Source of the DNA: Camelus ferus
Lineage: Eukaryota
Reading direction: 5' to 3'
Length of the DNA stretch: 64,000 nucleotides
Assembly: GCF_009834535.1 (NCBI RefSeq)
Contig: NC_045696.1
Coordinates: 72,852,001 to 72,916,000, forward strand
Of the stretch, positions 2,961-62,199 are shown in pieces. Made by a program: the position numbers and the translations under genes. A model generated the notes under the pieces. It was not told the origin of the DNA. It worked only from the letters and a program-made list of their open reading frames with translations, and searched no databases. Every line of letters starts with the position of its first letter. Position 1 is the stretch's first letter.

Positions 2961-3989
2961 TACCTGACTATCACTCTAGGAACACTGCTCACCCCTAATT
3001 TGGAAAGTTTAATTCCTTTTGATCTCAGGGTAGGCCTTGCCCAGCGGGCTGACTCATATTTAGAGTCTGAACGATTGCAATGTCTGAGACAACAGGAAGA
3101 GAAATGAGCCTGACTCCACTGGAGCAGTATCAGGATCCTGTCCTCCAGCTCTGCTCCAAAATGAAGACATGCTCAGGCACCCTGGGGGCCATGGGTATCC
3201 ATCCTGAGACCACCAGAGCAGGCTTAGTTTTCAGAGTGACCTGAACTCTCAAAACAGAAACGTGAAACAAGAAGATTTCAGGCCACAAGTCCAAAGTCTA
3301 GATCTGTTCAGCTTAAGCTCGTTTATAGGTTGAGAACCTACCCAGCCAAGATTAGACATCATCTTCCGCAGCAGTCTGCACTCTGCTCCTCCTCCCACAG
3401 CCCCCAACACACAGCACACACATGTCCGAACACCTAGGAAATGCATTCACCTTCTTTCTGGAAATACACACCACTTGTTCTGGTGGCTCTGGTGAGTAAC
3501 CGTGTAAAAGCCCACATCTGCCCAGATGTGAAACAAAAGACACACACATACCTCCCCCTCCCCCATGGTGCAAATGATAAGCCATTGAGAACTGGAACTG
3601 AATGATTCCAGCATTTTCCTATTCAGGCCACTCTTTTGGAAATGTAGTCACGTTTAGTGTGACAGGGGGTGAACAATTACACTAGGGTTGAGATGACTCA
3701 TTTAAATAGCATAATTCAAATATCTTATTCATCTTGCAATATAATCAAACTCCTGAGGGGCTGCTACACTCCTTGCAGGAAAAAAAAAGTGACAAAGGGG
3801 AAAAATGCAGATATTACAGGGCCTGGTTGGCAAGTACAGAGGCTGAAGGGAGGCAGGGTGAGTGGGCCCCAGCGGACCTCCCAGAGCAAACAGGCAAGTC
3901 CCCCTCTACTCTTCCCAGACTCCCAGGGCCCCACTGGCCACTCACTCTGTCTGTCTGTCTGAAAAACACATGAATGCTAGGCCGGGGTC

Positions 3990-5659: not shown

Positions 5660-5960
5660 ACCCTGGTCACAAATTCAGAAGACCTGGGCTCCAGTATCCG
5701 CAACAGTAACACAGGTGGCCTTGGGACTTCAGCTGACTCATTTGTAAAATGAGAGGCTTAACTTGTGTGGAGCTATCCAAGTTCAAATACCAGCCTGGCC
5801 ACGCATCAGAACAGGAGGTCAGGGAAGACCCCTGATGTGTTGGTATCTTCATTTCCCTCATCTGTAAAATTATGACAAGAGCAAAACACTTCTCTTGCGG
5901 TGCTGCTGCTGAGACACAGTGCCGACAACAACACCAAGCACATAGTAGGCATTTAAAACA
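5660..5960 (+). mobile_element. MIR SINE fragments
   Basis: ttccctcatctgtaaaat core and cacatagtaggcattta tail. Confidence 0.65.
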
Positions 5961-8489: not shown

Positions 8490-8606
8490 CTGAGTAGAAA
8501 ACACAGAAATGGTCTTTCATATGGTCCAGCTGGGGCATCTCTTTCTTCCAGACCCAGTCATGCTGGACGATCTCATCCTCTTCCTCCATGGACTCATGGC
8601 ACTCAC

Positions 8607-8751
8607 CTCCCTGAGTATTTGTCACCTTAGGCTGAAATTCGGTCTCTCCTCCTAGACGAGGCCTCCTGGGCAATGACTCTTTTCTTCTCCTGTGTGACAC
8701 ACTTCCAGGTTTCAATACATTTCTGTCAGCAACTGACATTCTCTGAAACCT
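8607..8751 (-). other. Candidate 145-nt 5'UTR exon
   Basis: Acceptor ctcatttgctttctgtag|; donor GAG|gtgagt. Confidence 0.6.
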
Positions 8752-9852
8752 CTACAGAAAGCAAATGAGGTGTTAACCTGGTGCGTGGCCCCCATACCAA
8801 CTGGGTGGGGTGGGGTGGAGGTGGAAGGCAGGCTTATCTCTAAGGGAAGCGGTTTTTTTTAGCAGAGTCTGCAGATTCTTGAAAGAGCAGAATATGTCAT
8901 GTCCTGGTTCTGAAATCCTAGGTAATTCACTTCATCAGCAGCGTGGCCCTTTGTTTTTTATTAAACTGCACAGGAATAACCTTGCCATGTTATTGCTACT
9001 ATTAATAATGTGCAGACTTTATCACATCACAATTTGTGTTATGAAAATTGAGTGCCAACGCAGGGGAAAACTGATAGAAGGAAACTACGTCGCTCTGTTG
9101 ATAAGGGAGTGACTTCCTTCGGACCTAAGCTAGCCTCCCTCTGGGCCTGGGAATAAACTGCAACCTCAGCCCCTGCGCCACAAACCCACCCCCATCAAAG
9201 GAATTAGTGGGGACTTTCTGCCCAGCGCTGCCCAGCCATCCTGAAGACCTGTTCCATCGGCACAATGGCTGGTGATTTGCATTCAGAGCAACCAGCAGTC
9301 CTTTCAAAAGACAGGGACACAGTCCAAGCCACACAGTTTTCGGCTTTTATACGGACATCTTCCCATAGTTTCCACTTCAGTCTTCCAAACCACACTTGTA
9401 AGTAGGGCGCCATCCTCACTTCTGTGATCTGATCCTGTGTGAACTAGAAATTCTTCTAAACAAAGGGTGGGCAGGGGCGGGGCGATGGTGAGAGGCTCAC
9501 TGCAGACCCCACCTTGGGCTGCCCAGGGGTTCCCCACGAGGATTTTCACCACCTCCTCCTACAGCGGCGCTCCGTGAGTGCACACACGCAGTGGGAAGGA
9601 GAAGGCGTCCATCCACAGTTCATTACACAGGGTGGCTGGGCGCACCCTCCGCGGGAACGGGGCTCCACGGTCCAGCGACCCGTGGGAGGACCCGAGGGGA
9701 GACCTCCTCGAGGCTCTCTTGTGCGCACAAAACCCAAATGCGGGCTGAAACCAATAAGGAGCTGGTTTAACTTTCTGAAACCACTTCTTATTCTTTCTGG
9801 GAAAACCCTACCCAATGACCCAAACTGATTTTCCTCATTTCCAATGCAAATG

Positions 9853-9895
9853 CACACGCACGGGCGCGCGAGCACACACACACACACACACACAG
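9853..9895. repeat. (CA)n/(CG)n alternating purine-pyrimidine tract
   Basis: cacacgcacgggcgcgcgagcacacacacacacacacacaca. Confidence 0.9.
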
Positions 9896-10260
9896 ACAGT
9901 GGAGGAATTTTGTGAGGTAAATGGTGGCGTCGTCAACGTCCAAGTTCAGCACCACTTTTTAACTTTCCATCACCGGGCCTTATCTTTCCAGAAAACAGAT
10001 GAAAGGTCTGAGGGGGGGAGGTGATCACAGAGATGGGACTGGCTTTTATTAAAAGAGTGTTTTCCCAGACCTTAACTAAACCTCATCCACTTTTGTCAGT
10101 CAGGGCCGACAGTTGAGAGCAATATTAGAGGAGGTAATTGCATGTATCAGTCAACAGCTTTTGTCCCACGGCCGCTGAGAATTACAGTAAAACGGGCACA
10201 GGAAAACAGCGCACTGGATTAAAGGCAAAAAAGATCTTTCTCCAGTTTCTCCCTACTCAC

Positions 10261-10276
10261 CAGCTGTTATGTTCGG
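10261..10276 (-). other. Candidate 16-nt microexon, or 3' end of a short first exon
   Basis: gcttctgtctctgcag|CCGAACATAACAGCTG|gtgagt. Confidence 0.45.
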
Positions 10277-10548
10277 CTGCAGAGACAGAAGCAGCAATAA
10301 TATCTGGGGGAAATCTAGCCTACCACAGTCTGGGCTTTTTTTCCTCCTCCTGTTTTCCCTCTGCCTTGAAAGTGATTAATCTTTGACTTTTAAAGAGAAA
10401 CTTTCAAAAAGCATTCTGTCTCACCATAGCAGCTATTAACTGCATATGCATTTTTCTCCCAGTAAAATGTATGAACACATATAAACCTGGACCTTCTACC
10501 ATTTCTTAGGCTGCCTATAAAAACAGCTACCTCAGAGCCTTTGATGTC

Positions 10549-10688
10549 ACTTGGTAACAGGTCCCAGTAGTTGCTTAAGTAAACAGTTGGCAAGACATAC
10601 ATACATTTTAGGTACATTTGATTGTAGATCACACCAAGCCAAACGCATGCTGATGAAGCTGTAGCACTGGGGTCTGAAATTCACCCAG
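10549..10688 (+). ncRNA. Candidate first exon of a divergent/antisense lncRNA
   Basis: TATAAAAA 33 nt upstream of Inr-like TCACTT (A at 10549); consensus donor CAG|gtgagt at 10688. Confidence 0.35.
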
Positions 10689-11589
10689 GTGAGTGGGCAG
10701 CCTGTCCCTGTGCACCTGGCACAAATCCCCACAAGATAAGTGTAATTGTCACCAGGTCCCTGGGGCTCCAGACACCACAGACTGGCTCCCTTAACCCAAT
10801 GTTAAAGGAACGCCCTTTCTCTCAGCCATGAGAAAGTAACTAAGACTGCCCAAAAAGCTGCGGGAGCCTTTGGATTTGAAAGCTTCAAGGAGGTGCATTC
10901 TTAGGACTAAGTCGAGGGCACCTTGGAGGGAGAGTTGGCTGACCCGGAAAGAACAGCGACCAACTCCAGGGTGACTGCAGGAACCAGCAAACGGTGGGTT
11001 TCTGAGTGAGTGAGTGAAACAAGAGGCAGGGGTGAGTCTGGCCAGCTCTCCTGTGACGCTGACAGAGGTCAGCTGGGACATTGATGCAGTGGGGCAAAGT
11101 AAGTCAGTTGTTATTCACGAGTTTGAGCCTTAACTACGTGAAACCCTAAGGTACACCAGGATGGTCAAGTCTGACTTTCCGATGCAGGAGTGAACAGTTA
11201 TTTCCATTTCACAGATCAAGAAATGGAGGTTTTGAGAGAAAAGGTAACTCAGTCAGGTTAATATAACCAATGAATACTGTAGATAGGATTCAAATTCAGC
11301 TCTGGCTCCTCCAGAGCCTTGCTCATGCCATCACAACCATCTCACCTTTGGGGTGGTACCTGCCCAGCAGGACTTGATTGTGGACACCAGGGATCTAGGG
11401 AGCTATAGGAGAAACCTGCAGAAGTCTCCTAGGACATCAAATTTACTCAAATATTGGTGGGTGTCAAATGGAACAGGAGTAGGGTGGTGGGGGATTAAGT
11501 AATTGATGAGTATTTCAAAACACAGTTTTTCATGTTAAATTCAATGGCTATATTAGAGAGCCAGATACAATATTTTTATCTTTTTGAGG

Positions 11590-12370
11590 ACACAGAATAG
11601 GTAATGAATTAATATGATTCAAAACTCAAACACTACAAAATGGTACAAAGTGGAAACCTTCTCTCTCATTTATCCCCCAAGCTCCAAATTCAAATTCTCC
11701 TCTCAACAGGCAAACTATTGCATATATACATACATAGTCTTTTTTTTTCCTTTTTTAGACACAAATGCTAGCCCACTAGACATGCTTTTCCACCCTTTGC
11801 TCTTTTACATTTAACCAAAAATCTTGGGGTTCACATCTGTAAGCGAAGTACTCCCTCATTCTTGTTTATATTTGTTAGTGTTTCATTAAATTGATGCATC
11901 ATTATTTATTTAACCAGTCCTATTACTGGACTTTCTGGATGTCCTGAAAACCTTACTACTATAAACAATGCCTCAGCGAGTAATCTTTCCAACGTTTGAG
12001 AAGATGCCTGTTGGCTGCACTGCTACGAGTCTGACACTACCAGGTCAGAAGGCGTATGCATTTAATTTTGATAGATACTAACAAATTTCTCTCTAGAAGC
12101 TGTATCAATTGGCAGAGAGCCACTTCTCAGTGTTGTCAAACTTTTTTACATTTGCCAGTCTGATAGGTGAAAAATAAAATTTCACTGTCATTGTAATTTG
12201 CATTTCTCTTCCTATGAGTGGGGCTGAGAAGCTTTTCATGTGCTTAAGATCAATCTCTCATTTTCTGCAAACTGTCCATATCATTTGCTCCTTTTTTCTA
12301 GAGTTTTCGGCCTTTTAAATGGGCTTGTAGAGTATGGAGATGAGACCTTTGTCTGAGACTTGAGTGGCAC
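11590..12370 (-). mobile_element. Ancient L1 (L1ME-like) fragment
   Basis: Antisense ORF2-end motifs: gccagtctgataggtgaaaa...aatttgcatttctct...gaagcttttcatgtgctta. Confidence 0.7.
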
Positions 12371-12606
12371 CGTTTCTCTAGGCCTGACAATCTGCCTTCA
12401 CTGAGAACCCCAGCCCCACAGCGGTGGCACTGGCACTAGCAGCCTGACCACCCCCGTGCTGACCCATCCGCACCTGAACTCTCGTGAAACCTGCTCTCTG
12501 CCTGGCCAAGCTTCCTTCCACAGCCTGGGTTCGGCCCCCATGGCTTGCTTTCCTCCAGGAGACAGCTAAGTTACCCTGCTCTGGCTACTCTACCTGCAGG
12601 TTCCTC

Positions 12607-12645
12607 TGAGGAGGTGAGGAGGTGAGGAGGTGAGGAGGTGAGGAG
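12607..12645. repeat. (TGAGGAGG)n tandem repeat, ~4.9 copies
   Basis: Perfect 8-mer tandem array. Confidence 0.95.
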
Positions 12646-12754
12646 AGAAGTGAGAACTGGTGCATATTCTCAGCACCAAACCCTGACCCAGGATTCATAC
12701 ACATCACTAAGTCTCATCCACTAAGCACTCCCAGTATCCCGTACAGGGGCTTGA

Positions 12755-12965
12755 TAATAATGATCACTGCCATGTACTGAACATTGACCGTGGGCCAAGC
12801 AGCAGCCAACACACTTTCCATATATTAGGTCATTTCATCCTCAGAATATCTCATGAAGGTATAATTATCATCAGAAGACAACACCAGTGACAGAAATGTT
12901 AAATAATTTGCAAGGGGGTCATAAGAGCAGTATGAAGCCAGGACTGCAAGTCAGGCATTCTGGAC
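12755..12965 (-). mobile_element. MIR SINE
   Basis: catgtactgaacattgacc...catttcatcctcagaa antisense MIR. Confidence 0.6.
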
Positions 12966-13557
12966 CATCTATCAGCCTAACCAGACTCTGATCTTCAGCA
13001 GGTATCCTGGCCGCCACTCAGGTCACATAGATCACGTGCATGTACACACATATGCACACACTATAATAAAGAAAAAACTTTTACTAACATTGTATGAGAT
13101 TGAGGAAAACATATTGTCCTAGCACCAACATGATATGAGGTCTTGTGGGGTTATATAACCCATGACACTGAAAATTAAAGATACTTTAGGCCTTAGCTTG
13201 CCTAAGTTTTAACTGAAAGCCAAATAAGTTGCACGTAAGTCTGGGAATGATCCAACATTTCAAAGAATAAAGGAAGTAATATCTAGGAAAAGACAGCTAG
13301 AGAGTTGTGACATGGGCTGGTCCCGTGGGCCCTGGAAGCAATGCTTTGTTACCTAACCTTACACCACTCACATCCCAGGCAGAAATACATCCCAGCCCTC
13401 AGCACAGGCCTGTGACAAACCTTACTACAGCCAGTGACTTAGGGACCCCTACTTGCGCATGAAATCTCCATAGCCTAGGCCTATAAAATCAAACTTCCCC
13501 AATTCAAACCCACATCTCAAAGTCGAATATGCAGGGACAGATGCTAGAATAACTCAC

Positions 13558-13742
13558 CCAGCCGTGTGTCTGCCATGAGAGACGAGGCGGGCTCAGGTCT
13601 GCCCTCCACTCCCTTCTCAGTCCCTGGATGGCCACAAACGAAAACATCATCAGGCTGCATCTGCATCTGCATCGCATCCACGCAGAGCAAAAAGATGGCT
13701 TCCACACTGCGCCATCTACCTTGAAGAGCTGTGGCTAAAGGG
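13558..13742 (-). other. Candidate 185-nt non-coding exon
   Basis: Acceptor ctctgactttgcag| with a branch-point-like ctgac; donor TGG|gtgagt. Confidence 0.35.
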
Positions 13743-16180
13743 CTGCAAAGTCAGAGTCCATCCTTGTGACTGGGTGATTCTCTGCAGGGACCAGTCAAAC
13801 ATAACTTTCTGGCACTAGTTTTGTAAGGGATTCCAGCCAGCGTCTATTTTTAAGTCCAAAGTCAGATTTTGAATACTCTGGGTCTAATAATCCAGATGGT
13901 GATCAAATTCAGTTTTTAGTTCCTTCTACCCAGCATTCCTTTTTCATCAGTTGACTCACTCATTTCTTGGGCTGAAGGACCTGCCATTATTTATCACCCC
14001 CCAAACATATCCTGAGTCCCTACTGTTCTTTGGGACCAGAGGTAAAAAGACAAAAAAGAAAAAAAAAAAAAGTTCGTACCTGTAAGGTGCTATTAAGGTA
14101 GGAATTTAAAAAAAAAAACAAAAACCTTTCAAGGGCAGTTACAAGGTTAAAGAATTTCTGCTTGGATGGCGTTAAGCACAAATGCCTTAAAGGGTACACA
14201 CGATGGCCCTCAGGGCTGAAACGAGACAAGATGGCAAAGAACACCCAGAGCGAGTGATGACTGAGCTCAGCACTGCCAGAGCTAGAGGCAGTGGGGAGAA
14301 TCATCCAAGTAGAGATGCTGCAGGAGCAAAGGCCCGGCGGTGAGAACACATCGCCCACCTGAGAGGCCACAGTAGTTAAGCGCGGCTGCGACGTGGAGGG
14401 CTAAGGCTGAGAGAGAAGGAGCGCTCCCAGTGAGCAGCCAGGCTGTGAAAGGCCCGGGATGCTCCGCCAAACGTGTCTTTGACCCTGACCCTGACCCTGG
14501 TGATGAGGACACAGAAATACACTAAGCAGAACACGATCTGACCAACTTCAGGCTTTAGAGAGGTCTCCCTGAGAACAGAGTAAAAGTAGCTAAAAGTAAT
14601 AAACAGGAGACGTTTGACTACCTCCCTCTGGTCTCCCTTTGCCAGCCTTTTCCTTGCCATCTTCTCCCTGACCTCTTCCACAGCAAGACTGCTCGGGGGT
14701 GGCAGTCCTGACAGAGTGTGAATGACTGATAAGACTTAGTCGGTTGGTGTTTTGATAAGATACAAAATCTTAAGCAAAGAAATAAGGATGTAGAATTTGG
14801 AAAAGTCAAATTAAATTGGTGGGATAAGTATCTGGGTGGGAGACACCCCACTGGAATTTCCAAAATCACATTGAATGACATCCACCGCTGCCCTCATTGG
14901 GACAAAATCACACACCGCACACCAGCAAAGTCACGTATATGCAAGATTATTCATTGCAGCAATATTTAGAATACCCATAAGATTGAGAACAACTTAAATG
15001 TTTATCAGTTTGGAACTGTTTAAATAAATCATGGCATACATATAAAATGCAATACCATGAAGCTATTTTTTTTTTTAAAAAAAGGGCTAGGGAAATATTA
15101 TCTACTAAGTAAAAAGAGCATTAAGACACAGTATTAAGTGGAAGATGCAGAACAGTGAGTATGTTACACTACCACTTTCCCACAAAAGATACTGGGAGCA
15201 GAGGGAAGGGAAATATACATGTGTTTGTTGTACTGGGCATAAAACTTCTCTGGAGAGAGACTCAAGAAAATGATGATGTCTGGTTGCCAGTGGGAAGAGG
15301 AAATGGGTGGCTGGGGAGGCAGACTTCACTCTATCCCCCTTTGTTCCTTTTGAATCATGTAAATGTCGCCCCTGTCCTGGAATAGCTCTCAGCCAAAACA
15401 GATAAACACATGTACAATGGGTGAGTGATCCGCAGCACTATCTAATAGGCCAGAGCACAGAGGCAAGGAAGGGGTTAAACAGAGCCTTGGTCTGGGGCCC
15501 GCGAAAGTCCACCTGAGAGAGCGCCTATTCCCAGTATTTCAGCCCAGTCCCCCAGGCCCCCATACTGCAGGAGGATTTAGATCATGATGTGGCACCCAGG
15601 GGGCTCTTCCCCAGCCCTCTAACCTTACAGGCGTGGCCACTGAGAAACTGAGGGGCCGCAAGGTGAAGGCACTTGCCTCAAGCCACGTGGGTGGGCAGCA
15701 GTGTCCCAAGCCTGAACCCACCACGGTGTCCCTTCCCCTGGCACAAGCCCAGTGACCCTGGCAGTGCTCTGGGCTGGCTGCAACACAGTTTGGCTGTAGA
15801 GACTCCACTTGCCCATCTTCTCTGGAGGCCCTGAACCACCTGTGTGTCCAGAAACCATTGAGATGTCGCCTCCTCCCTCCCAGCGACTTCAGAGGAAGTG
15901 CTCAGCAATCGCTGAGTTCCCTCGGTCCTTGCGACCTCAGGCCACCATCCCTGTCATGGAACTTTCAGTTTGGTTCTGGCCCCTTTGTGGAGTTAACAAA
16001 CGGAAACCTCAGCATTTCGTGCTTACTCTTGCTGTAAAGGAAACAAAATAAAAATCCATCAACCTGCCACGCATCCTGGCTCGCTTTGGCCTTCAACTTC
16101 TCCATGGCAATAGAGCAATTTGTTCTCATTTGCAAATCCCTGCCCCCCCTGCCCACAGCAGTGAGCACAGCCTTCATTAC

Positions 16181-16340
16181 CTGAAGGCTTTAGAACGGGG
16201 CTGAGCCTGAAGCAGCTGGACTCCTCAGGGATTTCAGAGCCCTGACTTGCTAACACTTCTTTAGTTTTTCCACTGAACTGCTCTTTCCGTCCGGGACCTT
16301 TCATTTGCTCCCGCAACTCCACACACTTAACCGTGGAGCT
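16181..16340 (-). other. Candidate alternative first exon downstream of a MEF2/TATA-like promoter
   Basis: Donor CAG|gtaatg at 16181/16180; start inferred ~30 nt downstream of GAATAAAG (16372-16365). Confidence 0.45.
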
Positions 16341-16364
16341 CCCCTCTGCCCTCCTCCTCAGCCT

Positions 16365-16453
16365 CTTTATTCTTCCTGCTCCCTCCTCTGCACTTTAGAG
16401 CCGAAGCCCCGGCCTAAAAATAGCTCCCCCGATCCTGCCTGGTCTTTCATCTG
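16365..16453 (-). promoter_or_regulatory. Muscle-type promoter module: MEF2 site, TATA-like element, E-box
   Basis: Perfect MEF2 consensus CTAAAAATAG at 16414-16423; AATAAA on the minus strand at 16371-16366; E-box CATCTG at 16448-16453. Confidence 0.5.
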
Positions 16454-17149
16454 CGGTGCTGTTCCTTTTTCCCTTTCACTTCTAGGTGCCTTTGGAATAT
16501 GAGGGAAAGAAATCGCACTTCAGCAAATTTAATAATAACATAGCAATAATGTCAATAACAAAAGTGCCAAATATTTATTGAGCACTTACTTTGTACCCGG
16601 GACTGAGCTAAATACCTACATGCGTGCCCTCAGAACAAACACCTTTTCTGTTTTGCAAGCTATTTTTGTCTCCGATCATAAATGGTCTGTGGAAACATAG
16701 ACTATGATTGGTTTCATCACAGTCCACTCTCTGAGATGACAATTATCAATTGTGCTGCCATCTGACTGCTTTGAAGCAGCCCTTAACTGCCTGAGAGCCA
16801 GACTCAAGAACAAACTGACTATACGATGCTTACACTGTAGCCAGCAACGGGCAGATGGAGGACCACCTCCCCGCCCACCCCACAGTGCCACGGAACAACA
16901 CAGCTTCAATTTTATTCTTAGGCTACTAAACTCAAGTTCAACATCTCTCACCATGACCAAATCAATCTCGCTTGAAATGCCACCTTAATTTGAAGCTAGA
17001 CAACACAACAATGCAGCAGCCACAGTATTAGAAGTTTGGAAGAGAGACAGACATGCAAGTGAGCCCTGAAAATCTCTCACCGCTACCTATAAAGTTCCTC
17101 TTAAACTTACCTGCTTGGGATGGGGACATTTGATAGCATCTTCATTATC

Positions 17150-18356
17150 AGGAAATTCCACACCCTCTCCAGCATTTATCGTTTGTGGACATTTTAATGA
17201 CAGCCATTCTGACCACTGTGAGGTGATACCTTATAGCTTTGATCTGCGTTTCTCTGATAATTAGTGATATTGCGCACCTTTTCATGTGCCTGCCTATTGG
17301 CCATCTGTATATCTTCATTGGAGAAATGCCGGATTAGGTCTTCTGCTCATTTTTTGATTGAATTGTTTGGATTTTTTTGTTATTGACTTGTATAAGCTGT
17401 TTATATATTCTGGAAGTTAAGCCCTTGTTAGTAGCATCGTTAGCAAATATTTTCTCCCAGTTCGTAGGTTATCTTTTTGTTTTGTTTATGGTTTCCTTTG
17501 CTGTGCCAAAGCTCATAAGTTTAATTAGGCAAATGCTGGAGAGGGTGTGGAGAAAAGGGAACCCTTCTATACTGTTAATGGAAATGTAATTTGGTGCAGC
17601 CACTACGGAAAATAGAGTTACATATGCTCCAATAACTCTACTCCTTGGCATATATCTGGAGAAAACTTCAATTTGAAAAGATACATGCACCCCAATGTTC
17701 ATAGCAGCACTATTTACAATAGCCAAAACATGGAAGCACCCTAAATGTCCATCAACAGAAGATTGGATAAAGGAGATGTGGTACATATATATACAATGAA
17801 AGACTACTCAGCCATAAAAAAGAATGAAATAATGCCATTTGCAGCAATAAGTATGGATCTAAATATTATCAGACTAAGTGAAATAAGTCAAACAGAGAAA
17901 GACAAATATCACATATAGCTTATATGTGGAATCTAAAAAAAAAATGAGACAAATGAACTTATTTACAAACCAGAATCAGACTCACAGACATAAAATACAA
18001 ACTTATAGTTACCAAAGGGGAAAGACAGAGGGTGGGAAAAGATGGATAAATTAGGAGTTTGGGATTAACAGACACAAACTACTCTTATGCAGTAGATAAA
18101 CAACAAGGTCCTACACTATAGCACAGGAAACTGTATTCAATATCTTGTAATAACCTATAATGAAAAAGAGAATGAAAAAGAATATGTATATATATTTATA
18201 TATATGACAATCACCATGCTGTACACCAGAAAGTAATGCAACATTGTAAATCAACTATATTTCAATAGAGATGCTCATTAGCTTAATTCACTTTATAATT
18301 CTATTTGTAATAAAAACTGAAAACCTACAAAAATTTAAATATTAAGGAAATTCCAC
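17150..18356 (+). mobile_element. 5'-truncated, 5'-inverted L1 insertion with TSDs and a probable 3' transduction
   Basis: Antisense L1 segment 17158-17529, sense segment 17530-~18266 (ORF2 C-terminus plus 3'UTR), TSD aggaaattccac at 17150-17161 and 18345-18356. Confidence 0.9.
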
Positions 18357-21300
18357 TAGAAATAAAGATGAAGTAACTCATGGAGCTTGTGGTACTGTAT
18401 ATTCTAAGCACATCATTATCACTTTTTAAAAAGGCTAGGTTGCTGAATATTTTTATCTTAGTCATTCTATTAATATAGCATCTGAACCTTGTCTCCCTTC
18501 CCCAAATTTTTCTCTTGTCTAATCAGTCTTCCTTCCACATGATGCCATAGTGGTAGTTCTAATAAAAATATCTGAATAGAAATAGTAAACAAATATGTAA
18601 TCACAAATCTATTTTGCCCACTAACATATCTCAATATCAATAAGTGTTCAATAAATATGTGTTTTTAACAAATAAATGAATTAATTAATCATCAAGAAAA
18701 GCATAATAAAACGGGAAACTTATTGTTGCCTATAAATCTACATTTTTTGGTTTTGTGGTTTTTTGGTTTTTTTGTTTTTTTTTTAAATAATTCTTCCCCA
18801 ATGCTGACAGGAATGTGGGAACAAAGCTCCTCTTTTTTTGACAAGAGGGATTTTGACAACATAATTTTTTTCACAAGCCTTCACATCCTTTCATTCCTAA
18901 GAATTAACTCTAATAACTTATCAATGAGTAGGAAGAAAAGGCATATAGAAAGAGTTTCCAAAATTTGAAAATATTTAAAGTTCAGCAATAATAAAATGTG
19001 AAGTAAATGGTGGTACAACCACTCAGTGAAATAGTATATAGCTATCAAAATGATTATTAAATTGATAGATAACATAACAGGTGAAAAAATAACAAAACTG
19101 GCACTGTGATAATACCTATGTAAAATACACAGAAACTCATGCAGAAAACACTAGCAAGAGGAACTAGATTTAAATTTTGTCTGCCCAGTTAATAAATCAT
19201 GTAAATTTAGGTGGGTCAATCTCTGTGGTTGAATTTCCTCACATTAACTCTAATGTGATGGTAATGATAAAATAAGTGACTTTTGAGGGGTGCAGTAGGG
19301 AAGTGAACGAGTGCTGGGACGGAAGAGGATGAGCACCTGACAGATGTGCTGCCTACAGCGTCACCACAAGGGTGATGGAAGGATGGTGCTTCACCTCTGT
19401 CTCCTGCATCCTCAGTGATGTGCTGATGGTAGACACGTCCTGCTGTGCTCGCCTCGTCTTTCTCCCCCTCCTCTGGGAGGAAGGCCTGGATCTGCATCAC
19501 TTCCATCCACGGCGCTCCTGTCCTACTGCTCGGTGGTGCTTTCGTGCAGCCTGGAGCTCATCATTACCTTTTCTATGTACATACTGATGCCTGAGCCCCT
19601 CAACATGGCTCTCAGGAGAGGGGCATGTGGGGTCCCTCTTCATGGACCCTTCAGCACACAACCAAATGCACTACCACAAGTTATTTCGATTTTTAAAATA
19701 CATTGATTTGGCAATCATACCGACAGGAGAAGTATGTAAATTGTCCATCATTCAATCAACAGTAGCTCTTATTCCATTTCTTCCTTTTAATCATATTTTA
19801 TCTCATAGTCACATAAGAGCTAAGAAACAAATCCTGGTTTTCCTTGGTTTGTATTTAACATCCACTTAGTTTTATAACTTGCTGAGTTGTAGATAGCCTT
19901 GTTCCCAAGATTAACTAATTCTGTAACTTTCTGGTGCCGAAATAAATGTAATAACTGAGATCAATGGTAATTAATTCCCAGGAAAAAAGATGTACCAAGG
20001 AGAAAGCCAGAGATAGGCCATTATGACTTCTACGAAAGAACCCTTTGGAAGGCAGGATTACCTTCAATTTGAATTATGCTCCCAATTCAAAGGTAAGTGG
20101 TTCGACTCAAAGTTTTTTTGTACCCACTACTTCCCTAGGGCAAGAGTCCTGCAAGCAAATACCTTTCATGGTGCCAGCTCCTTTTGTGTTTTTCACAATT
20201 AGCTTATCTCCAATTATATAAACACGTACATGATGACAATCTTTGGTTATGGAGGTATTACAGGAAAATAGAGGTTACTTTAACTTTGAGAGTTGGTTTG
20301 AGGACAAACCAGATTAAAGCTTATATGGATACACAAAATAATAGACTAATGCTATTGTCTGCTTCCTTTGAATTATTTTATTAGAAGGAACATATTAATT
20401 ATAATGAAAGCAAACTTGGACTCTGTGGGTTTCTGAAGAAAATTCCTTTGTAGCATCACGGCAGGATTTCCCACCATTTTTCTCTTTCTGATGAAATTAA
20501 CTCCCCATGGCTGGTCAGCAGGATAATCTAATTTTAGCCAATCAGCTTGGGAGCTGCCGTTGACCTCACAAAGGGAGAGGAAAATATCTGCAGTCATAGC
20601 AACCACTCGCTCAGCTCTGATCATCTCTGGACCCTTCCGCCTAATGACAGACACCGGTTTGCTTCTTAGATGATTAATCTTTTCCCCTGTGCACCTCCTT
20701 GAATACATTAGCCAAACAAGTCTGATAAATTTGTTTATCCCAAGACAATCATTAGAAAATTACCTGCAAAAGTAATTCTCACTAGAGCAGTTTGTGAATG
20801 GAAAGCCATATGGCAGATGAGAAGAGAAATAAGCAATAAAATCTCTTGCTGTATGTCGCAACAGGTCAGGAACGTTTCCCCCTTTAAACTTTGTCATTTT
20901 ACACTAGATCACAATAGCACAGCAGCCTAAAGGCCATTTCACAAGAGCAGAACTTTTATCCAGTTAATAGTTATTCCTCCTACCAGCTCTGCACACCTAC
21001 TGTGTGTGAGGCTCTAGGGACACACCACTGAATATGAGCTGTCTGTGCCTTCTCACAGCCCAGTGGGAGGAGACAGATGTGTACGTCGATAATTACAGCA
21101 CACCATCAGGGCCATGGGAGAGAATGCGGAGAGCTCCGAGAGCCCTGGAAGGGAGTGGATAATTTTTTCCCAGAACCAACAAAGGATGTCACTGCAATGA
21201 CATTCGGAGTAGAAAAAAAAAAAAATGAGCAGAACTTCTCCAACACAGGAGAATATTCTAGGCAAAGAGAACAGCTTTGAAAAGATGTGGACTTATGGAC

Positions 21301-23085: not shown

Positions 23086-23496
23086 TCAATCACAAAAATA
23101 CAGTCTGCTCCCATGTCACAGGTTTCAGTTCTTCACGACAACAAGACAAGCAACCTGCATTCAGAAGCAAATTCCCACATTCACACGGTGAAGGGTTCTT
23201 CCCTAAATTTCTTTCACTTATTCCCCAGTTTCCTTATTTTATTTATTCCCCCCACACAAGCGCACCGAGAGACAGTATTTGCCAGAGGACCACAGCACAG
23301 AACGTTGCTTCAAGAAAGGACCTGTGTTTCAATTCCAAAAGACCCAAGCTGCATATTCAATTTTTCTTTGGATCACTCCAGAACCTAGAGTTTTGCTGGA
23401 GACACCATTCTTTCTGTCTTTCACTTTTTTCAGTACTCAAAATCCATAGTCTATCTTTTATTGAGCCCTCCATCAATAATAATAGGGCCTCTGAAA

Positions 23497-24387
23497 TGCA
23501 GGTGGCCAAAGGCACATGAGAAGGTGCTCAACATTGCTAGTCATCAGGGAAATGCAAATCAATGAGATATCACCTCACACCTGTCAGAATGGCCATCATC
23601 AAAAAGTCTACAAATGATAAATGCTGGAGAGGGTGTGGAGAAAACAGAACCCTCCTACACTGTTGGTGGGAATGCAGTTTGGTGCAGCCATTAGGGAAAA
23701 CAGTATGGAGATTCTTCAAAGACCTAAATGATCCAGCAATCCCACTCCTAGGTATATATATCCGAAAGAAACCAGAAACACTAATTCAAAAAGATATATA
23801 CACCCCAACGTTCATAGCTGCATTATTTACAATTGCCAAGATATGGAAGCAAATTACCAGTCCATCAACAGATGCCTGGATAAAGATGTGGTGCATATAC
23901 GTACAGTGGAATACTACTCAGCCATAAAAAATAATGAAATGTTGCCATTTGCAACAACACGAATGGATTTGGAGGGCATTATGCTAAGTGAAATAAGTCA
24001 GACAGAAAAAGAAAAATACTGTATGATACCACTTACATGTGGAATCTAAAAAATACAGCAAAGTAGTGAATATAACAACAACAACAACAAAAAAAAGCAG
24101 ACTCACAGATACAGACAACAAACTAGTAGTTACCAGTAAGGAGAGGAGAGGGTGGAGGAGCAAGAGAGGGGTGGGGATTTAAGAGGTATAGACTACTATG
24201 TGCAAAATCAATAAGCTACAAGGATCTATTGTACAAGACAGGGAATTTAGCCAATATTTTATAACTATAAATGGAGTATAACCTTTAAAAGTTGTGAATC
24301 ACTATATTGTATGCCTGTAATTCATATATTATTGTACAGCAACTAAACTTCAATAAAAGAAGAAAAGCCAAAAAAAAAAAAAAAAAG
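23497..24387 (+). mobile_element. 5'-truncated L1 (ORF2 C-terminus, 3'UTR, poly-A)
   Basis: Translates [16 protein letters not shown]...CWRGCGE...LLHCWWEC (L1 ORF2 cysteine-rich region) with frameshifts; AATAAA followed by an A-tail. Confidence 0.95.
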
Positions 24388-25281: not shown

Positions 25282-25523
25282 CCTTCTGCCTACTTCAAGT
25301 CCCTCTGCCCAACTTGTTGCTTATTTTATGCTCAGTAGTTCTCAAATCATTTCGTGTTCATGGTAGCCCATTTAAGGGATTAAACTGGATCCACCATTAT
25401 GACTTGGTTTCCCCTTCAGCACTGAGAAGAGCTATTTACTGCCCTGATTATGCCAAGCTGTGGTTCTTAAACATTCCAGTATGTTACACATTTAGCAAGT
25501 TACATGTTCCAGTATGCACAAAC

Positions 25524-25524
25524 T

Positions 25525-25571
<47 letters not shown>

Positions 25572-25715
25572 TATTTATTGAAGTATAGTCAGTTTACAAT
25601 GTTGTGTCAATTTCTGGTGTATAGCATAATGTTTCAGTCCTACATGAACATACATATATTCTTTCTCAAATTCTTTTTCACCATAAGTTACTTCAATGGA
25701 TCGAATATAGTTCCC
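25524..25715 (-). mobile_element. Short L1 3' end with (TAAA)n tail
   Basis: (TTTA)n then ttgaagtatagtcagtttacaatgttgtgtcaatttctggtgta. Confidence 0.85.
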
Positions 25716-26020
25716 TTAGGCAGGGTTTGGTTTATTGGGAGAGTGCTCTCAGGTGAGAGCATATGGGGAGGGAGAAGTGAAGAGAGAATGTGAGCTCAGC
25801 TCCAGACGAGCTGCAGTCTGACCCCCCATGGAGATGCTCTGGAGCACAAAGGACATTACCAAGTGAGTCAGCTTGAGCAAGGGGGCTGGCCTTTTATACC
25901 CCATGCATAGTGGTCACCAGCCAAGGTCTGGAGGGGTGTATCCTCCTAGGGAGTAAATGCAGCTGAGAGGTGGGTACGCCAGCTGATAGAGTGTGCTATC
26001 GTGGGCACCAACAGCATCCA
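25716..26020 (-). mobile_element. ERVL LTR fragment (LTR16-like)
   Basis: ggctggccttttataccccatgcat motif (reverse of LTR TATA region). Confidence 0.5.
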
Positions 26021-32460: not shown

Positions 32461-34675
32461 AATTGCTGTTGGGAACAATTTTAAAATACATGTAAGGCTT
32501 AATACTGAGGCTGAAGTTGCTACAGTTTTGCATGCCAGACACTGACATTCTAAGTAAACTCATCTCCACTAGACTGTAACCCCTAGGAGGGCAGGCCCTT
32601 TGGCTTCTTCACAGCATGTCCCTCATGCTGAACACAAAGTATGGCAAAATATTTATTGAACTAATAAAGTAATGTATAAATTTTCCTGGTATACTTGTAT
32701 TTTTTATTGAAAGCATCTAGTCTTTAGCATCTAAAAAAAATTGTTTCTTTTTTTAAAATAAGCAGTCCATAAGTGAGGACAAAGATGAAAAGAAGGAAAG
32801 GTGATTGTTGAAGGTACATCAAAATGTCCAAAAGTCCAATCCAATGTGGAGTGAATGTTTACCTAATAAAAGTTATCTGCCTGATGAAGTTTGGTGTCTA
32901 AATGTGCACATGAGAGTTGTTTGGATCACCTGGGACAGTATGTACTTAATCAAGCCCCAACAAGACCAGGAGTAGAATGAGAAAAGAGCCCAGAACACAC
33001 AGGAAATCTGACTCATGGGAAGTCATGCCCATCAATAGCCTCTTTACCTCCTTGGCCAACGTTGCCCCACCACCTTTCAGCCCCTTCGCTAACTCCTGCC
33101 ACTCTCTCCTGCCATTCACTATTACACCCAAAGTGTCACACCTTGCTTGGTTCTGTCTCTTCATTTCCCCTCCACCTCATCTACAACCTTTTCATCCCTA
33201 TATGCAGGCTTGGCTTCCTCCTCCTGTTCTGGGAAACTTAGGCGTGAGCAATTCCAGGAGCTCTCTTCTCAATGTTCTGTCTACAAGCCAACAGCAAGTT
33301 TTGATTGATTTCAAGACCACACAGCAGTCTTCTCATTTTTGTCTCTTTGCCAAAGTTATCAACTACAGGTAAACATACACACGTGGGCATATGTGTGAGT
33401 GTAGATGCCTATACATACAGAACACACATACATGTGTACAAACACACCTCCACTTTGTATACCCAGGTAATGGAAGCTGATAATAAAACATTTCTCTAGT
33501 ATCAAATGTCTAAAAATCTTAAAGGACCATTTTTTTATGGCACAGCATTGTGATCATTATTATTCACATAGGTGACCCTAAGACATTACAAGACATTAAT
33601 GTCCTTTATGATATAGCAAAGATAAATCATTTCCAGACAATTTTAGTGATCAATGGATTTGAATGAATTTGAACCAGGTCAAAATTGGCAACTCCTGCCT
33701 GAAGGATGCTAACCTGGCTAACTCCATCTAGGCACAGGCTTCATGATCAAATGTCATGTTTCCTGAGGACTAACGTTACTCTTCTCAATGACACTTAAAA
33801 AGGATCTTTAACCCATGTCTAAAATGGACTTTGTTTAAAAAATAAATAAAAATAACCCTTGTAAAATTAATTTAAGTTCTCTTGTGTAACTGTGCGTGTA
33901 TTTTCTATGCATCCATCTATGATTGGCTGTCTGTAAAGATTAAGAGCTGCCTAGCACAGACCAAGTGCCATACGAGGGTTCACTATTAGGACACAGAAAG
34001 AGTATCTCAGGCAAGACTCACAGTGCTCTTTGGGTAACACGGCTCTTGCCAACGTCTGAGTTTCCTCCTCCTGTTGCCTGGCCCTTTCTTCTTTCCAGGT
34101 ATTTGATCTGCACTGATCTTGTCTTCTGTGTCCACACTGAAATGTTAACTGGAAAATCAAAAAGCACGCACTATTCTAGGCAGATATTCAAAATTTAATT
34201 AATACAACATTAAGATTTTTTAACCTTATTTATAAAAATTTACTGCATTTCTTTTCCCTGCAATCCATGTAATGTGAATTTCTGCACCCAGAATGAGCTC
34301 GTTTGTCACCTGCCGTAACCCTCCCCAAACTTCTCATGAAGACTTCCTCAGGACACCCTTGCAAGCCCGTAATGAGCCCCTACTGGCAGTGGAAACGTTA
34401 TTTACAGACATTGGCAGGTTCAGAAAGGAAAGAAGAGCTTCTTGGAAAAGTGCTTTTCCTATTTCTCTTATTCCCAAATCATGCAACTCAAAGATATAAT
34501 TTGCTATCAGCAAGAGGGGGAAGGGGAAAATGCCAATTTAATTGTTACATATGTGCTATAAGTTGAACTACTGTTAAGTATTTCTGTTGATCTTTGCATC
34601 TCAAGATAATAATTGGTTCACAATAAATGATTATTTTATAAACAAATGAAAATCAATAAAGTAGATTTCACTCAC

Positions 34676-50511: not shown

Positions 50512-50613
50512 CTCTGAAAGCCTTGATCTCACAGGAATGCACTCCCCTCAGCTGGGTGACCACAGGAAAATGCCCAGGAGAACGCAGTCGTGTGGTTCCT
50601 GGCTTCCTGTGGA
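50512..50613 (-). other. Candidate 102-nt non-coding exon (95 nt with alternative acceptor at 50606)
   Basis: ~135-nt pyrimidine tract ending ttttaag| (alternative ccacag|); donor GAG|gtaagt. Confidence 0.4.
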
Positions 50614-50616
50614 CTT

Positions 50617-50752
50617 AAAAAAAAAAGAAGAAGAAGAAGAGGAAAGAGGAGGAGGAGGAGGAGCAGGAGGAAGAAGACGAAGAAGAAGAAGAAGAAGAAG
50701 AGAAGGAGAGAAGGAGAGAAGAAAGGAAGGTAGGAAGGAAGGGAAAAAGAAT
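50617..50752. repeat. Purine-rich compound microsatellite An-(GAA)n-(GGA)n-(GGAA)n
   Basis: ~135 nt almost purely A/G on the + strand. Confidence 0.95.
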
Positions 50753-53159: not shown

Positions 53160-53430
53160 TTTTTTTATTATTAAAAAAATTCTTTTATTTAAGTATAGTT
53201 GGTTTACAATTTTGTGTTAACTTCTGGTGTACGGAATAGTGAGTGATTCAGCTATATATATATATAAGGATATATATATATATCCTTTTCATATTCTTTT
53301 TTCATTGTAGGCTATTACTAGGTATTGAATATAGTTCCCTGTGCCATATATAGGACCTTGCTGTTCATCTATTTTATATAGAGTAGTTAGTGTCTGTAAA
53401 TCCCAAACTCCCAATTTACCCCTCCAATTC
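53160..53430 (-). mobile_element. Short L1 3' end
   Basis: aagtatagttggtttacaattttgtgttaacttctggtgtac...gaatatagttccctgtgcc...aggaccttgctgttcatcta. Confidence 0.85.
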
Positions 53431-54381
53431 TTTTTATCAGTTTTGTTTCTTTTTAATGTCTGTCTTCTTTGGGAGACAGTGCCAACTTTGACAACTTGTA
53501 TGCATTTGTGGTCGCCCACCCCTTGCAGGTTGCCTTGAACAGCTTGGTTTCTCCTCCCCGTAATGGGCTGTAAGCTCTAACAATAACCAGTCTCCCATTA
53601 TTATTGCTGAAGAATTCCTTCTTGTTGGTTTTATAATAATAATTTTTAAAAAAAATCTGTATTGTTCTGTTTGGCTCTTTTGAGATTCCTAGTATCTCAT
53701 TACATCAGGGGAGTCTTTGTTTCCTCAAGGTAAAAAAACAAAACACAGAAACCCACATATTACTGGCCTTTTTATTTAGCTGTCACAATACCAGCAGTGG
53801 GAGAGTCACTATGCAGAGGAAACAATAGTAACATGGATCACTTCACATTAAAATGGGGTACCTAATTATTGTTTTTAGGGGCAGTTAATGAGTGGTACTT
53901 GTAGGTGATTAAACACATTTGGGTTTGGAAGACCAATGGGGTGAGAAGAAAGCCACTCTGCTTAGTAACAGTGTGGAGAGAGGGAGTTTGAGCACTGCAT
54001 CTGCCTTGAGTCCCATCCCACCCCACCCACAGTGCCTTCTCACGGGTCTAACAATGGGCTGAGAATGCCTGGGAAACCACCCAGCCAACGGAGCCCATTC
54101 ACAAGGGACAACCTGAGTTTGCTGTGTATCATCACAGATTCGGCTTAGCCACCACTGAGAATAAAAAGGACTTAGTGTATTTATAGCTGGTGATGCTGAA
54201 TAGAAGGGCCCTGAAAATGCCAAAGTTCAGGAGTTCCTATCCTCGATCATGCATTGTACTAGGAGTCCCTACCCTGGATCATGTGTTATACCAGATACTG
54301 AGGATACAAAGATACATAATAACCCTCCCCAGCCCTCAGGTAACTCCACCTTGAAGCAAAGATAGACCCACATACACTACT

Positions 54382-59342: not shown

Positions 59343-62199
59343 GATTAACGTAGTCTCAGTGCCGTCAGAAGCCTCACTCCCCACCCCTAGACGAGTTTCT
59401 CTTTCTTCTTCCCCCTTCCTCAAAACACCAGTAATCAGACAGCAATTGTCCCAGAAATCTCAGAAATACAGGGGGGACGGTGGAGCATCCGGACTAGAAC
59501 GCTGCAGGACAGCAAGGAGAAACTCTGCCACAGACGGGAAAACGTGCCTCTTGTTCATAGCATATCTAGTAATAAAGATGGGGAAATGTGTTTCAGCTAG
59601 TAACATTATCAAAAGGACGGTTGAGCAGGTTATTTTTTGTTACAGGCTAGTTTTAGAAAGTGTTTTCATCTGTCAAATAAGTTCTAAACATCAAAATATG
59701 ATTTTGTTTGAGTCCGTAATTCATCAAGAGGTCAGTCACATGCATCATGGGGTTATACGGCTTGGGCTCCAGTGGAAGGGAAGGCTGGCAATTGTCTACA
59801 TAAATCAGGTTTTTCAATCTGAGTAAGGCCGACGGATTGATTAACGGACTTCTACTGATTTTAGACCTGCTTTTAATCTGTCTTGAAGTAGATTTTTCAG
59901 TGAAATACTATTTGCTTAATTGTCTATTGTCTGAAATCCACAGGAACACAGACTAGAGTGAGTGTATTTCGCTTTTCCTCTCTTTGGGATCTTTTTAGGG
60001 CAAAGAAAAGTCAGAGTAGGGAAGGGTTTGGCATGTAGCTCCTTCTGCCCCCACCCCCACCCCCATACAGGAGTCTCCATATAGTCCTTCTTGACTAAAC
60101 TTGGGGCTTTCTCACAACATTCATTCTTCCTATGAGAAATGGTAAGAGAACACGCTGGTCTTTTCCTGCAACAATTCTTACACCAAACCTCACTTTTAAG
60201 TGTAAGATCTGGAAAGAAACTGTGGACCTCAACATGAGAACACTGGGCTATCAGATTTCCATTTTGGTCTGTTTCTGGCTTGATTTGATTAAAGTCCACT
60301 CAGACTATACATCCAGCGTCTCATTTCTCATTCTTCTACCACTGTTTAATCCTTAATTTCCTCTTCTGCTGGAATGCTTCATGCTGAATGATTGGATTAA
60401 ACTCACAGCACTTCAGGATGTGCTGAAATCAGCTTGGTGGTCCAAGACTCCTTTAACTGATAAGTGGAGTTTCCACATTTCTCTGTATTAAATGTTGCCT
60501 CCTCCTTATTTTCTTTAGTTATTACAAGCTGTTTTCAAAGAAGACAGACTTTTGCAGAAAAAGGTCTGTCTCTTTTTCAGGGAGAGGGATCCTGGGAGAA
60601 CACCGCTTACTATTTTTTTTTCCCTCCAAAACAAGCATTGCATTTATTCTTTGTCTCCAGCTTTCACAGACTTTTTGTCTTTTCTCTCCTTTAGATCTGT
60701 GTATATTCACAACACCTGTCTCTCCGGGAAGTACATATCCCGTTTCTTCAGCTCACTAGAAGTAGACATATATATTATTTCCCTAAGGGTTAGAGAAAGC
60801 TATCAGAACTTGGCAACATATAAAGTAAATACCCACTAATTGCAATACATTCATTTAAATCAGGTCTTTATCCTCCTTAGGCATTGTCGTAGGTGGCTTC
60901 CTTTGAAGTCTTGTTGAATTTGTCCAAAATTACCTTGCCTGAGGCAGATGGCTGTTTGGAACATTTGTTCAGAACCGATCCCCAAAGCAGTAAATCTTAG
61001 CGTTGGTAACGGCTCACATGCCACAAAGAGGAAATGTCCTGGGTAGGGCAGGGATCCAGACTTAGATCCCCCCATTGTATGTGAAGAAAAGAAAGAGAAA
61101 GGGAGAGATAACTGCACAACTCTCAGGGATATGATGCTATTGTACGACTTTGATGATGTTATAAACCACAAACCCTATACGTTACTGAAATACATAACCC
61201 AAAGCCTGCCAGTGAACTGCTTTCCTCTTCTTCCTGCTGCACCCATCCATCCATGCGTGCATCTCTCATTTAACAATGATTTTGTTGGTGTTATTTGTTT
61301 ATTTGTTTGCTTGCTTGCTTTAAACACAAGTAGCTTATACACCCTCATTATTTTAAACAATCCTGGGAATTTTATTTTACCCATATGAGAAAACCATGCT
61401 CTATCGATAACAAGATATCGTAACTATCATAGACTCACATGGTCTCCACAAATACACTGATAACCTGATGCAAACAATCACGTTCCAAGATCTTCAGACA
61501 CAATCAAGCCTTTGTTCAGGCTGCGTTTCATACTTCTTCTACCGAGTACATAAAACGGCTATCAAGTTTTTCAGTCTGTTGCAAGGCTTTGCTTCTGTTA
61601 TATCAGAAACTCCTCTGCAGTAGGCAAAGGAGCAATCTGAACTTGGAGCAAATGACTCTTCTAGTTAATTGTCATGGAGACAGCCTTAAGTCATGGCCTT
61701 CTTGAGTAAGGGAGGGAATCCAAATCAGGTTGTGGAACACTTATACATTGCACAAGTTAAGAGCCATTTAAAAGCACATCAGGGGATGCACTGGGTAAGA
61801 ACAAGTCATTCAAGTGATGTTCCGGTAACATCTCCATCTTTGGGTGATGGTAAATGATGCAGCATGAATAAGAGTTAGGAACTTCATCACAGTATCAAGC
61901 TAAAGTTTGTGAGTTCAAATGAGGGAGTGAAGCAAGAAAGAAGGTGACAGGAGAACCAGTAAGCAAGTGATTTTACTCAATAAAAATGAGAAAATTCCCA
62001 GGATGATGGTGAAGGGAGATTGTAGAGGACAACAGTTGTGTAGCAGACCAGGGGAATTGTCTGTGCAGGTTACAGCTGGTGGCAGACTCTGGGAGAATGA
62101 ATCCAAGAATATGAAATTGATTGAGTACCTGTTGTGCTTAAATACATGAACAAAAGAGCTGGACAACTGGGGAGTATGTGAAGATAAATTAATATTAAA

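What the first reader, a model, noticed from the sequence alone, without database searches (positions are those of the whole stretch)
17111..18375. L1 inserted inside a candidate 50-nt exon, separating its splice sites by 1.2 kb
Seen: removing the L1 and one TSD copy gives, on the minus strand, cttcatctttatttctag|TGGAATTTCCTGATAATGAAGATGCTATCAAATGTCCCCATCCCAAGCAG|gtaagt. That is a good acceptor (18357-18356), a 50-nt exon and a perfect donor (17110). The TSD overlaps the exon start. Inference: a lineage-specific L1 may have removed or remodelled a UTR exon, and the orphan perfect donor could recruit a cryptic acceptor inside the L1 (exonisation).
Basis: partly seen in the sequence, partly recalled or inferred. 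Interest (0 to 1): 0.7.

Follow-up and report, generated by a model that had tools for sequence, protein, structure and literature searches.

The report
L1 insertion splits candidate lncRNA exon
An old jumping-gene fragment really does sit inside what looks like a small exon of the counterpart of the human non-coding RNA LINC01206 near SOX2; it most likely silenced that exon, an ordinary kind of event, but splicing there has not been observed.

Summary
A 1,195-bp insertion with a perfect 12-bp target-site duplication separates an acceptor (18357-18356) from a perfect donor (17110), the best minus-strand donor of 3,576 in the window. The insertion is a 5'-truncated, 5'-inverted (twin-primed) L1 with a 67-nt 3' tail matching unique DNA 20 Mb away (3' transduction; no source L1 there now). 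The host is no protein-coding gene: human anchors place the site inside the LINC01206-orthologous lncRNA unit, 200 kb downstream of SOX2, on its sense strand. Whether the 50-nt segment was ever spliced is untested: no cross-species alignment or RNA junction data was obtained. Only 0.36% of flanking DNA lies in an equally strong pseudo-exon, but dozens of chance cases are expected genome-wide. If it was real, skipping is likelier than exonisation: no usable acceptor lies within 424 nt of the donor. Bold reading: the segment keeps frame with neighbouring candidate exons and a reported human LINC01206 peptide, so the L1 may have broken a hidden small ORF; protein searches found no support. The scan's notes held no earlier report of this site. 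Ordinary mechanism, modest interest.

The parts
18356..18375 (-). Natural 3' splice site of the candidate exon: pyrimidine tract and AG at 18357-18356, intact
   Evidence: score 6.1, rank 49 of 4,631
18345..18356 (+). Target-site duplication copy next to the poly(A) end; covers the acceptor G and the first 11 exon bases
18329..18344 (+). Degenerate poly(A) tail remnant (boundaries approximate)
   Evidence: read from the sequence
18267..18333 (+). 67-nt non-L1 segment with AATAAA at 18309; probable 3' transduction, 58 of 67 identical to G000:C1:52567464-52567530 (-)
17531..18266 (+). Direct arm of the L1: end of ORF2 (broken in all three frames) and 3' UTR, antisense to the lncRNA; ends without its own AATAAA or A-tail
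17157..17530 (-). Inverted 5' arm of the L1 (ORF2 fragment, broken); 17157-17161 is a 5-nt microhomology shared with the TSD
17531..17551 (+). 21-nt stretch duplicated at the inversion point (inverted partner 17157-17177, 100%); on the minus strand it carries the nearest cryptic acceptor, first exon base 17535
17150..17161 (+). Target-site duplication copy at the L1 5' end; minus-strand nick context TTCCT/GA
17111..17160 (-). Complete 50-nt body of the candidate exon, now without an adjacent acceptor; 2 of 3 frames open
17105..17113 (-). Consensus 5' splice site CAG|GTAAGT, GT at 17110-17109
   Evidence: score 8.9, rank 1 of 3,576
60991..61009 (+). Orthology anchor: exact match to the human SOX2 enhancer e4 guide sequence
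53691..53710 (-). Orthology anchor: human e6 guide (promoter region of LINC01206), 2 mismatches
34114..34134 (-). Orthology anchor: human LINC01206 shRNA2 target, 3 mismatches, 14 nt after an acceptor (first exon base 34148)
3737..3763 (-). Orthology anchor: 8 of 9 residues of a reported human LINC01206 peptide, 8 nt after a strong acceptor (first exon base 3771)
50512..50613 (-). Candidate upstream exon (102 nt), best-scoring in the unit; one open frame, in phase with the 50-nt segment
   Evidence: prediction only
8607..8751 (-). Candidate downstream exon (145 nt); one open frame, in phase with the 50-nt segment and with the human peptide frame; ATG at its fifth codon
   Evidence: prediction only

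Best explanation
An L1 RNA that had read past its own end into 67 nt of flanking DNA was reverse-transcribed at an endonuclease nick 11 nt inside a small internal exon of the LINC01206-like lncRNA. A second priming event from the other target strand, through 5 nt of microhomology, inverted the 5' part. This anatomy is shown by sequence (about 0.95 on its own). Inferred: the 50-nt segment was a real cassette exon; the insertion stretched it to 1,245 nt and put an A-rich arm with no acceptor next to the donor, so exon definition fails and the exon is skipped. Because the host is a lncRNA the loss was tolerated, and both splice sites remain as fossils.
For: TSD, nick context, tail, inversion with a 21-nt duplication and microhomology. 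Tail segment matches one other locus. Site lies between LINC01206 anchors at 53.7, 34.1 and 3.8 kb, on the strand that the shRNA target and the peptide match. Two of those anchors sit just behind predicted acceptors, so exon starts of this lncRNA look conserved. Best donor of the window; 0.36% local null. No AG scoring above zero within 401 nt of the donor. [quoted passage not shown]
Against: No junction was observed in any species. No human, pig or cattle alignment was available. Strong donors are not enriched on the lncRNA strand in 5-53 kb (minus 18/10/5/1, plus 22/8/6/2 at scores 5/6/7/8). About 56 chance cases are expected genome-wide. Only 4 of 11 human oligos mapped colinearly at 3 mismatches or fewer, and none touches the 50-nt segment. 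The peptide anchor failed retention-time validation in its paper.
Confidence: 0.45

Rival explanations
1. Chance pseudo-exon: the L1 landed in lncRNA intron DNA that happened to hold a consensus donor 39 nt beyond the duplication and a fair acceptor; nothing was ever spliced here.
For: Five equally strong pairs occur in 200 kb of flanks, and the perfect donor 3 times. Thousands of such L1s give dozens of chance cases. No strand enrichment of donors. No protein relative.
Against: The site is inside a known lncRNA unit on its sense strand; its summed score (15.0) is beaten by only 1 of the 9 other candidate exons with distinct donors; 0 flanking pairs have both sites as strong.
Confidence: 0.37
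2. Exonisation: the donor is still used, with an acceptor from the antisense arm of the L1 (17535, 425 nt; 17932, 822 nt; 18154, 1,044 nt) or the natural one (1,245 nt), so L1 sequence is now part of the lncRNA.
For: Both natural sites are intact; the antisense arm has strong acceptors (scores 4.3, 7.9, 10.5); a lncRNA has no frame to protect. The 17535 acceptor lies in the perfectly kept 21-nt duplication.
Against: All options give exons of 425 nt or more, long for exon definition (recalled). No strong internal donor lies in the L1 (best 3.2). In NF1 exonic insertions element sequence was included in 2 of 13 cases. With about 5-9% change per lineage, two short motifs survive without selection fairly often (inference).
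Confidence: 0.13
3. Premature end: transcripts splice into the natural acceptor or an L1 acceptor and are polyadenylated inside the inverted arm, so the L1 made a new terminal exon and the donor is bypassed.
For: ATTAAA on the minus strand at 17525 and 17198; very strong acceptor at 18154.
Against: No AATAAA on the minus strand of the insertion; a strong downstream donor usually suppresses nearby cleavage (recalled); no RNA data.
Confidence: 0.05

Closest known systems
L1-endonuclease-dependent insertions into exons of NF1 (PMC3219598, passages read) and L1 insertions in or beside MET exon 14 (PMC12934576, abstract only)
   Same: An L1 inside a small internal exon, natural splice sites left intact, skipping or cryptic-site use as the expected result.
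   Different: Those are recent human disease events in coding genes with RNA proof; this is an old, decayed insertion in a lncRNA locus with no RNA proof.
5'-inverted L1 formed by twin priming (named and counted in PMC12350158, passages; the detailed model of Ostertag and Kazazian 2001 is recalled, not read)
   Same: Truncated L1 whose 5' part is inverted, TSD, microhomology between target end and L1, small duplication at the inversion point.
   Different: Nothing mechanistic; an old non-human copy.
L1 3' transduction (definition in PMC12350158, passages)
   Same: Unique DNA from another locus between the L1 end and the tail, with its own AATAAA.
   Different: No L1 end lies next to the matching locus today, and the L1's own signal and tail are absent at the junction, unlike the A-rich ends of 11 of 11 relatives shown.
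LINC01206 (ENSG00000242512): human lncRNA next to SOX2, promoter at e6-e8 (PMC8654995), nuclear in keratinocytes (PMC12266952), testis- and tumour-expressed with a non-canonical ORF (bioRxiv 10.64898/2026.05.18.725836), rich in exonic repeat pieces (PMC6360812); passages read
   Same: Position after SOX2, strand and four colinear sequence anchors plus a peptide match.
   Different: Expression and exon structure in this animal are not shown; it is not known whether a human isoform contains the 50-nt exon.

Membership tests
L1 insertion by target-primed reverse transcription | Target-site duplication | tested here: met
   12 of 12 identical
L1 insertion by target-primed reverse transcription | L1 3' end (ORF2 C-terminus and 3' UTR) in many genomic copies | tested here: met
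   15,590 first-look candidates, 40 scored, 77-84% identity; ORF2-like frames (the ORF2 label is recalled, no family search was run)
L1 insertion by target-primed reverse transcription | Poly(A) tail before the TSD | tested here: inconclusive
   Only a degenerate A-rich remnant
L1 insertion by target-primed reverse transcription | Pyrimidine/purine nick site like TTTT/AA (consensus recalled) | tested here: met
   TTCCT/GA on the minus strand; degenerate
Twin-primed 5' inversion | 5' arm inverted and contiguous in L1 with the 3' arm | tested here: met
   Both arms align to adjacent parts of one uninverted copy with 21 nt overlap (L025, L029)
Twin-primed 5' inversion | Microhomology between target end and internal L1 site | tested here: met
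   5 nt, 17157-17161
L1 3' transduction | Unique segment mapping to another locus | tested here: met
   58 of 67, E 5e-14, the only match besides itself
L1 3' transduction | Source L1 directly upstream of that locus | tested here: not met
   No L1 3' end adjacent; the nearest same-strand L1 3' end is about 9 kb away and 73% identical. The source may have been lost or never fixed.
Exon of LINC01206 orthologue | Inside the orthologous unit, sense strand | tested here: met
Exon of LINC01206 orthologue | Junction reads or annotation at the empty site in another mammal | not testable with these tools
   No mammalian relatives are held for this genome; no exon coordinates in the passages and supplements seen
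Exon of LINC01206 orthologue | Conserved AG and GT across mammals | not testable with these tools
   no orthologous DNA obtained
L1 exonisation | RNA junction into an L1 acceptor | not tested
   No reads were laid on the region
L1 exonisation | Usable acceptor at ordinary exon distance (under about 300 nt) from the donor | tested here: not met
   28 of 28 AGs within 401 nt score below zero; nearest usable gives 425 nt
Exon of a conserved protein-coding gene | Protein homologues in other species | tested here: not met
   48-aa downstream exon: 0 hits at E 0.001 among 1.84 billion representatives, 0 of 4 candidates at E 10; 44-aa frame holding the 50-nt segment: no candidate (weak test)

The most novel reading that the evidence does not exclude
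LINC01206 hides an old small protein-coding frame of about 100 codons or more that runs through the 102-nt, 50-nt and 145-nt exons into the exon with the reported human peptide. The L1 insertion removed the 50-nt exon, shifted the frame (skipping it hits a stop 8 codons into the next exon) and turned a testis microprotein gene into a lncRNA in this lineage, next to the SOX2 squamous enhancers.
Probability: 0.07. Interest if true: 0.65.

Novelty: new member of a known kind. Interest (0 to 1): 0.3.

Why it matters
As it most likely stands it is a clean fossil of known L1 mechanics (twin priming plus 3' transduction) and a possible natural exon knockout in a lncRNA beside the SOX2 squamous enhancers. 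That is useful as a marker and as a test of whether LINC01206's exon structure matters. It would matter more if the frame chain is real, because it would mean an overlooked mammalian microprotein gene, proposed in human as a tumour-antigen source, was lost here through one L1 insertion.

Tried and rejected
Coding host gene: ORF and splice scans of the window and 200 kb of flanks showed nothing recognisable; Rfam 0 matches. LPP as host rejected: LIM matches on this contig lie 5.3 Mb away. Human oligos: 4 of 11 mapped colinearly at 3 mismatches or fewer (e4, e6, shRNA2, one forward primer); the e8 guide had a 3-mismatch hit at a non-colinear place and was rejected; the e1 guide is expected outside the window; five others had 5 or more mismatches. 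The forward-primer hit at 5772-5792 looks MIR-derived (recalled) and its reverse partner did not map, so it is a weak anchor. Sequencing runs: 19 of 24 listed hold part of 8500-18450; the three best RNA holders (0.84, 0.83, 0.67) are one study and may be DNA carry-over. None was laid, so they are no evidence. Protein searches were negative. Paper searches found no text with DNA of the segment, only the one preprint for the peptide motifs, and among 6 listed for LINC01206 plus 'ortholog' no title on its evolution; one search listed general reviews only, none read. The scan's notes had nothing near, alike or by words. A sibling L1 with the same tail or a close relative was not found: best 84%, 85% and 83% among the 40 candidates scored in each of three searches. 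No ATG was found upstream of the frame chain at the three donors checked between 51.2 and 52.1 kb. PMC11785119 and PMC11204533 (passages) and bioRxiv 10.64898/2026.08.12.744478 and PMC10602899 (passages) gave context only. The supplements of the microprotein preprint, which should hold the LINC01206 ORF, are closed; one supplementary file of PMC6360812 was not searchable.

Full report
Observation. A 12-bp direct repeat lies at 17150-17161 and 18345-18356, 1,195 bp apart, and removal of the insertion brings the minus-strand AG at 18357-18356 to 50 nt from the GT at 17110. The repeat spans the acceptor's G and the first 11 exon bases, so the full 50-nt body is still contiguous at 17160-17111; what it lacks is an adjacent acceptor. 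With my own approximate weight matrices the donor is the best of 3,576 minus-strand GTs and the acceptor 49th of 4,631 AGs. In 200 kb of flanks 0.36% of bases lie in a pair of equal summed score and none in a pair with both sites as strong. That is unusual for one site but gives about 56 chance cases over the 15,590 first-look candidates of this L1 family (my arithmetic, and candidates are not copy numbers).

Anatomy of the insertion. The direct arm (17531-18266, plus strand) is the end of L1 ORF2 and the 3' UTR. The arm 17157-17530 is the adjoining upstream part of L1, inverted; both arms align to neighbouring parts of single uninverted copies with a 21-nt overlap. The last 5 nt of the target duplication match the L1 where the inverted arm ends, and the nick context is TTCCT/GA. 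These are the marks of target-primed reverse transcription with twin priming (class named in PMC12350158, passages; model details recalled). Between the L1 end and the tail remnant are 67 nt with an AATAAA that match one other locus, 20 Mb away on the same contig, at 58 of 67 bases. No L1 end lies beside that locus in the 40 kb examined, and this copy lacks the A-rich end seen in 11 of 11 relatives. The simplest reading is a 3' transduction from a source that had lost its own signal and is no longer in the genome; a template switch from a cellular RNA cannot be excluded.

Age. The best scored relatives are 83-85% identical in three searches of 40 scored candidates each. The three-point branch of this copy is 9.3% (7.5-10.7%) against 11 relatives, and the tail differs from its source by 13% (95% interval 6-24%). 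Against great age, the 12-bp and 16 further duplicated bases are 28 of 28 identical, which has probability 0.02 at 13% and 0.05 at 10% pairwise divergence. At 5e-9 per year (rate used in PMC8605555, passages) this is about 13-19 million years; at a slower recalled rate near 2.2e-9, 30-42 million. The split of Old and New World camelids is given as about 16.3 million years (PMC12337305, passages), so I cannot say whether the insertion is shared by both.

Host locus. No coding exon was recognisable within 100 kb. A SOXp match lies 200 kb upstream and a P4-ATPase match 670 kb downstream on the minus strand, with LIM matches 5.3 Mb away; by recalled human order these are SOX2, ATP11B and LPP. Published human oligos fix the place: the e4 guide matches exactly at 60991-61009, the e6 guide with 2 mismatches at 53691-53710 (0 of 100 shuffles), the LINC01206 shRNA2 target with 3 at 34114-34134, and a forward primer with 3 at 5772-5792 (weak, repeat-like). 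Seven of 11 oligos gave no colinear hit. e6-e8 flank the LINC01206 start site (PMC8654995, passages and supplement 1). A reported human LINC01206 peptide matches 8 of 9 residues at 3763 on the minus strand; in its paper it failed retention-time validation. So the site is inside the LINC01206-orthologous unit on its sense strand, not in a UTR of a coding gene.

Was it an exon? Not shown. For: position and strand, the splice scores, and the fact that two human exonic anchors lie just behind predicted acceptors here (34148, 3771). Against: no strand enrichment of strong donors in the unit, the genome-wide expectation of chance cases, and no cross-species or RNA data. I put a real ancestral exon at about 0.6.

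What happens now, if it was real? Skipping is likeliest. All 28 AGs within 401 nt upstream of the donor score below zero because the inverted arm is A-rich on this strand. Usable acceptors give exons of 425, 822, 1,044 or 1,245 nt, each with stops in all three frames, and the L1 offers no internal donor above 3.2. In NF1, 6 of 13 exonic insertions caused plain skipping and 2 of 13 put element sequence into the mRNA (PMC3219598, passages); L1 insertions also cause MET exon 14 skipping (PMC12934576, abstract). Exonisation and a premature end at ATTAAA (17525, 17198) remain possible.

The bold reading. The 102-nt candidate (50613-50512) and the 145-nt candidate (8751-8607) each have one open frame. 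These frames are in phase through the 50-nt segment and lead into the frame of the human peptide; without the 50 nt a stop falls at the eighth codon of the 145-nt exon. All three open in that one frame occurs in 0.3% of shuffles and 0.5% of flank slices. The caveats are heavy. The two exons first came from a scan that demanded an open frame. In the unfiltered scan they rank first and third of 9, and I left out the second (40502-40248, no open frame) and the 34148 exon. This genome has a stop two codons before the peptide, and no upstream ATG was found. The 145-nt exon has its own ATG at codon 5, which would explain the match to the peptide without the 50-nt segment; the two upstream frames are then open by chance in 7-9% of cases (products of the single rates). 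No homologue of the 48-aa exon exists among 1.84 billion representatives at E 0.001, nor in two word-based searches. The preprint reports that such ORFs are mostly young, with a median of 37 residues. I give it 0.07.

Novelty and verdict. Each mechanism is known. New member of a known kind; interest 0.3.

Noticed in passing
window 60991-61009 and 53691-53710: The window holds the orthologues of the human squamous-cancer SOX2 enhancers e4 (19 of 19 identical guide site) and e6; the cluster e4-e8 and the LINC01206 promoter should lie at about 50-61 kb.
   Followed up: partly
window 53159-53426: A second old L1 3' fragment of the same family sits between the e6 anchor and the presumed LINC01206 start site.
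   Followed up: no
L035:1501-1567 (G000:C1:52567464-52567530): Unique AT-rich source of the transduced tail, with no L1 beside it today; it has GATAAA where the insertion has AATAAA.
   Followed up: partly
window 8751-8607 and 3771-3733 (minus): A possible small ORF starting at the ATG in the 145-nt candidate exon would run in the frame of the human LINC01206 peptide; here a TAG interrupts it two codons into the last exon.
   Followed up: partly
window 50625-50723: An (AAG)n array of about 34 units forms, on the minus strand, a 100-nt pyrimidine tract directly upstream of the best candidate exon.
   Followed up: no
window 9001-10400 and 56001-57000: Raised CpG ratio (0.56, 0.59) in a repeat-poor gene desert; possible regulatory elements.
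   Followed up: no
window 23493-24366 and 25523-25716: Further old L1-like fragments, 81-90% identical at best to copies in the fetched loci.
   Followed up: no
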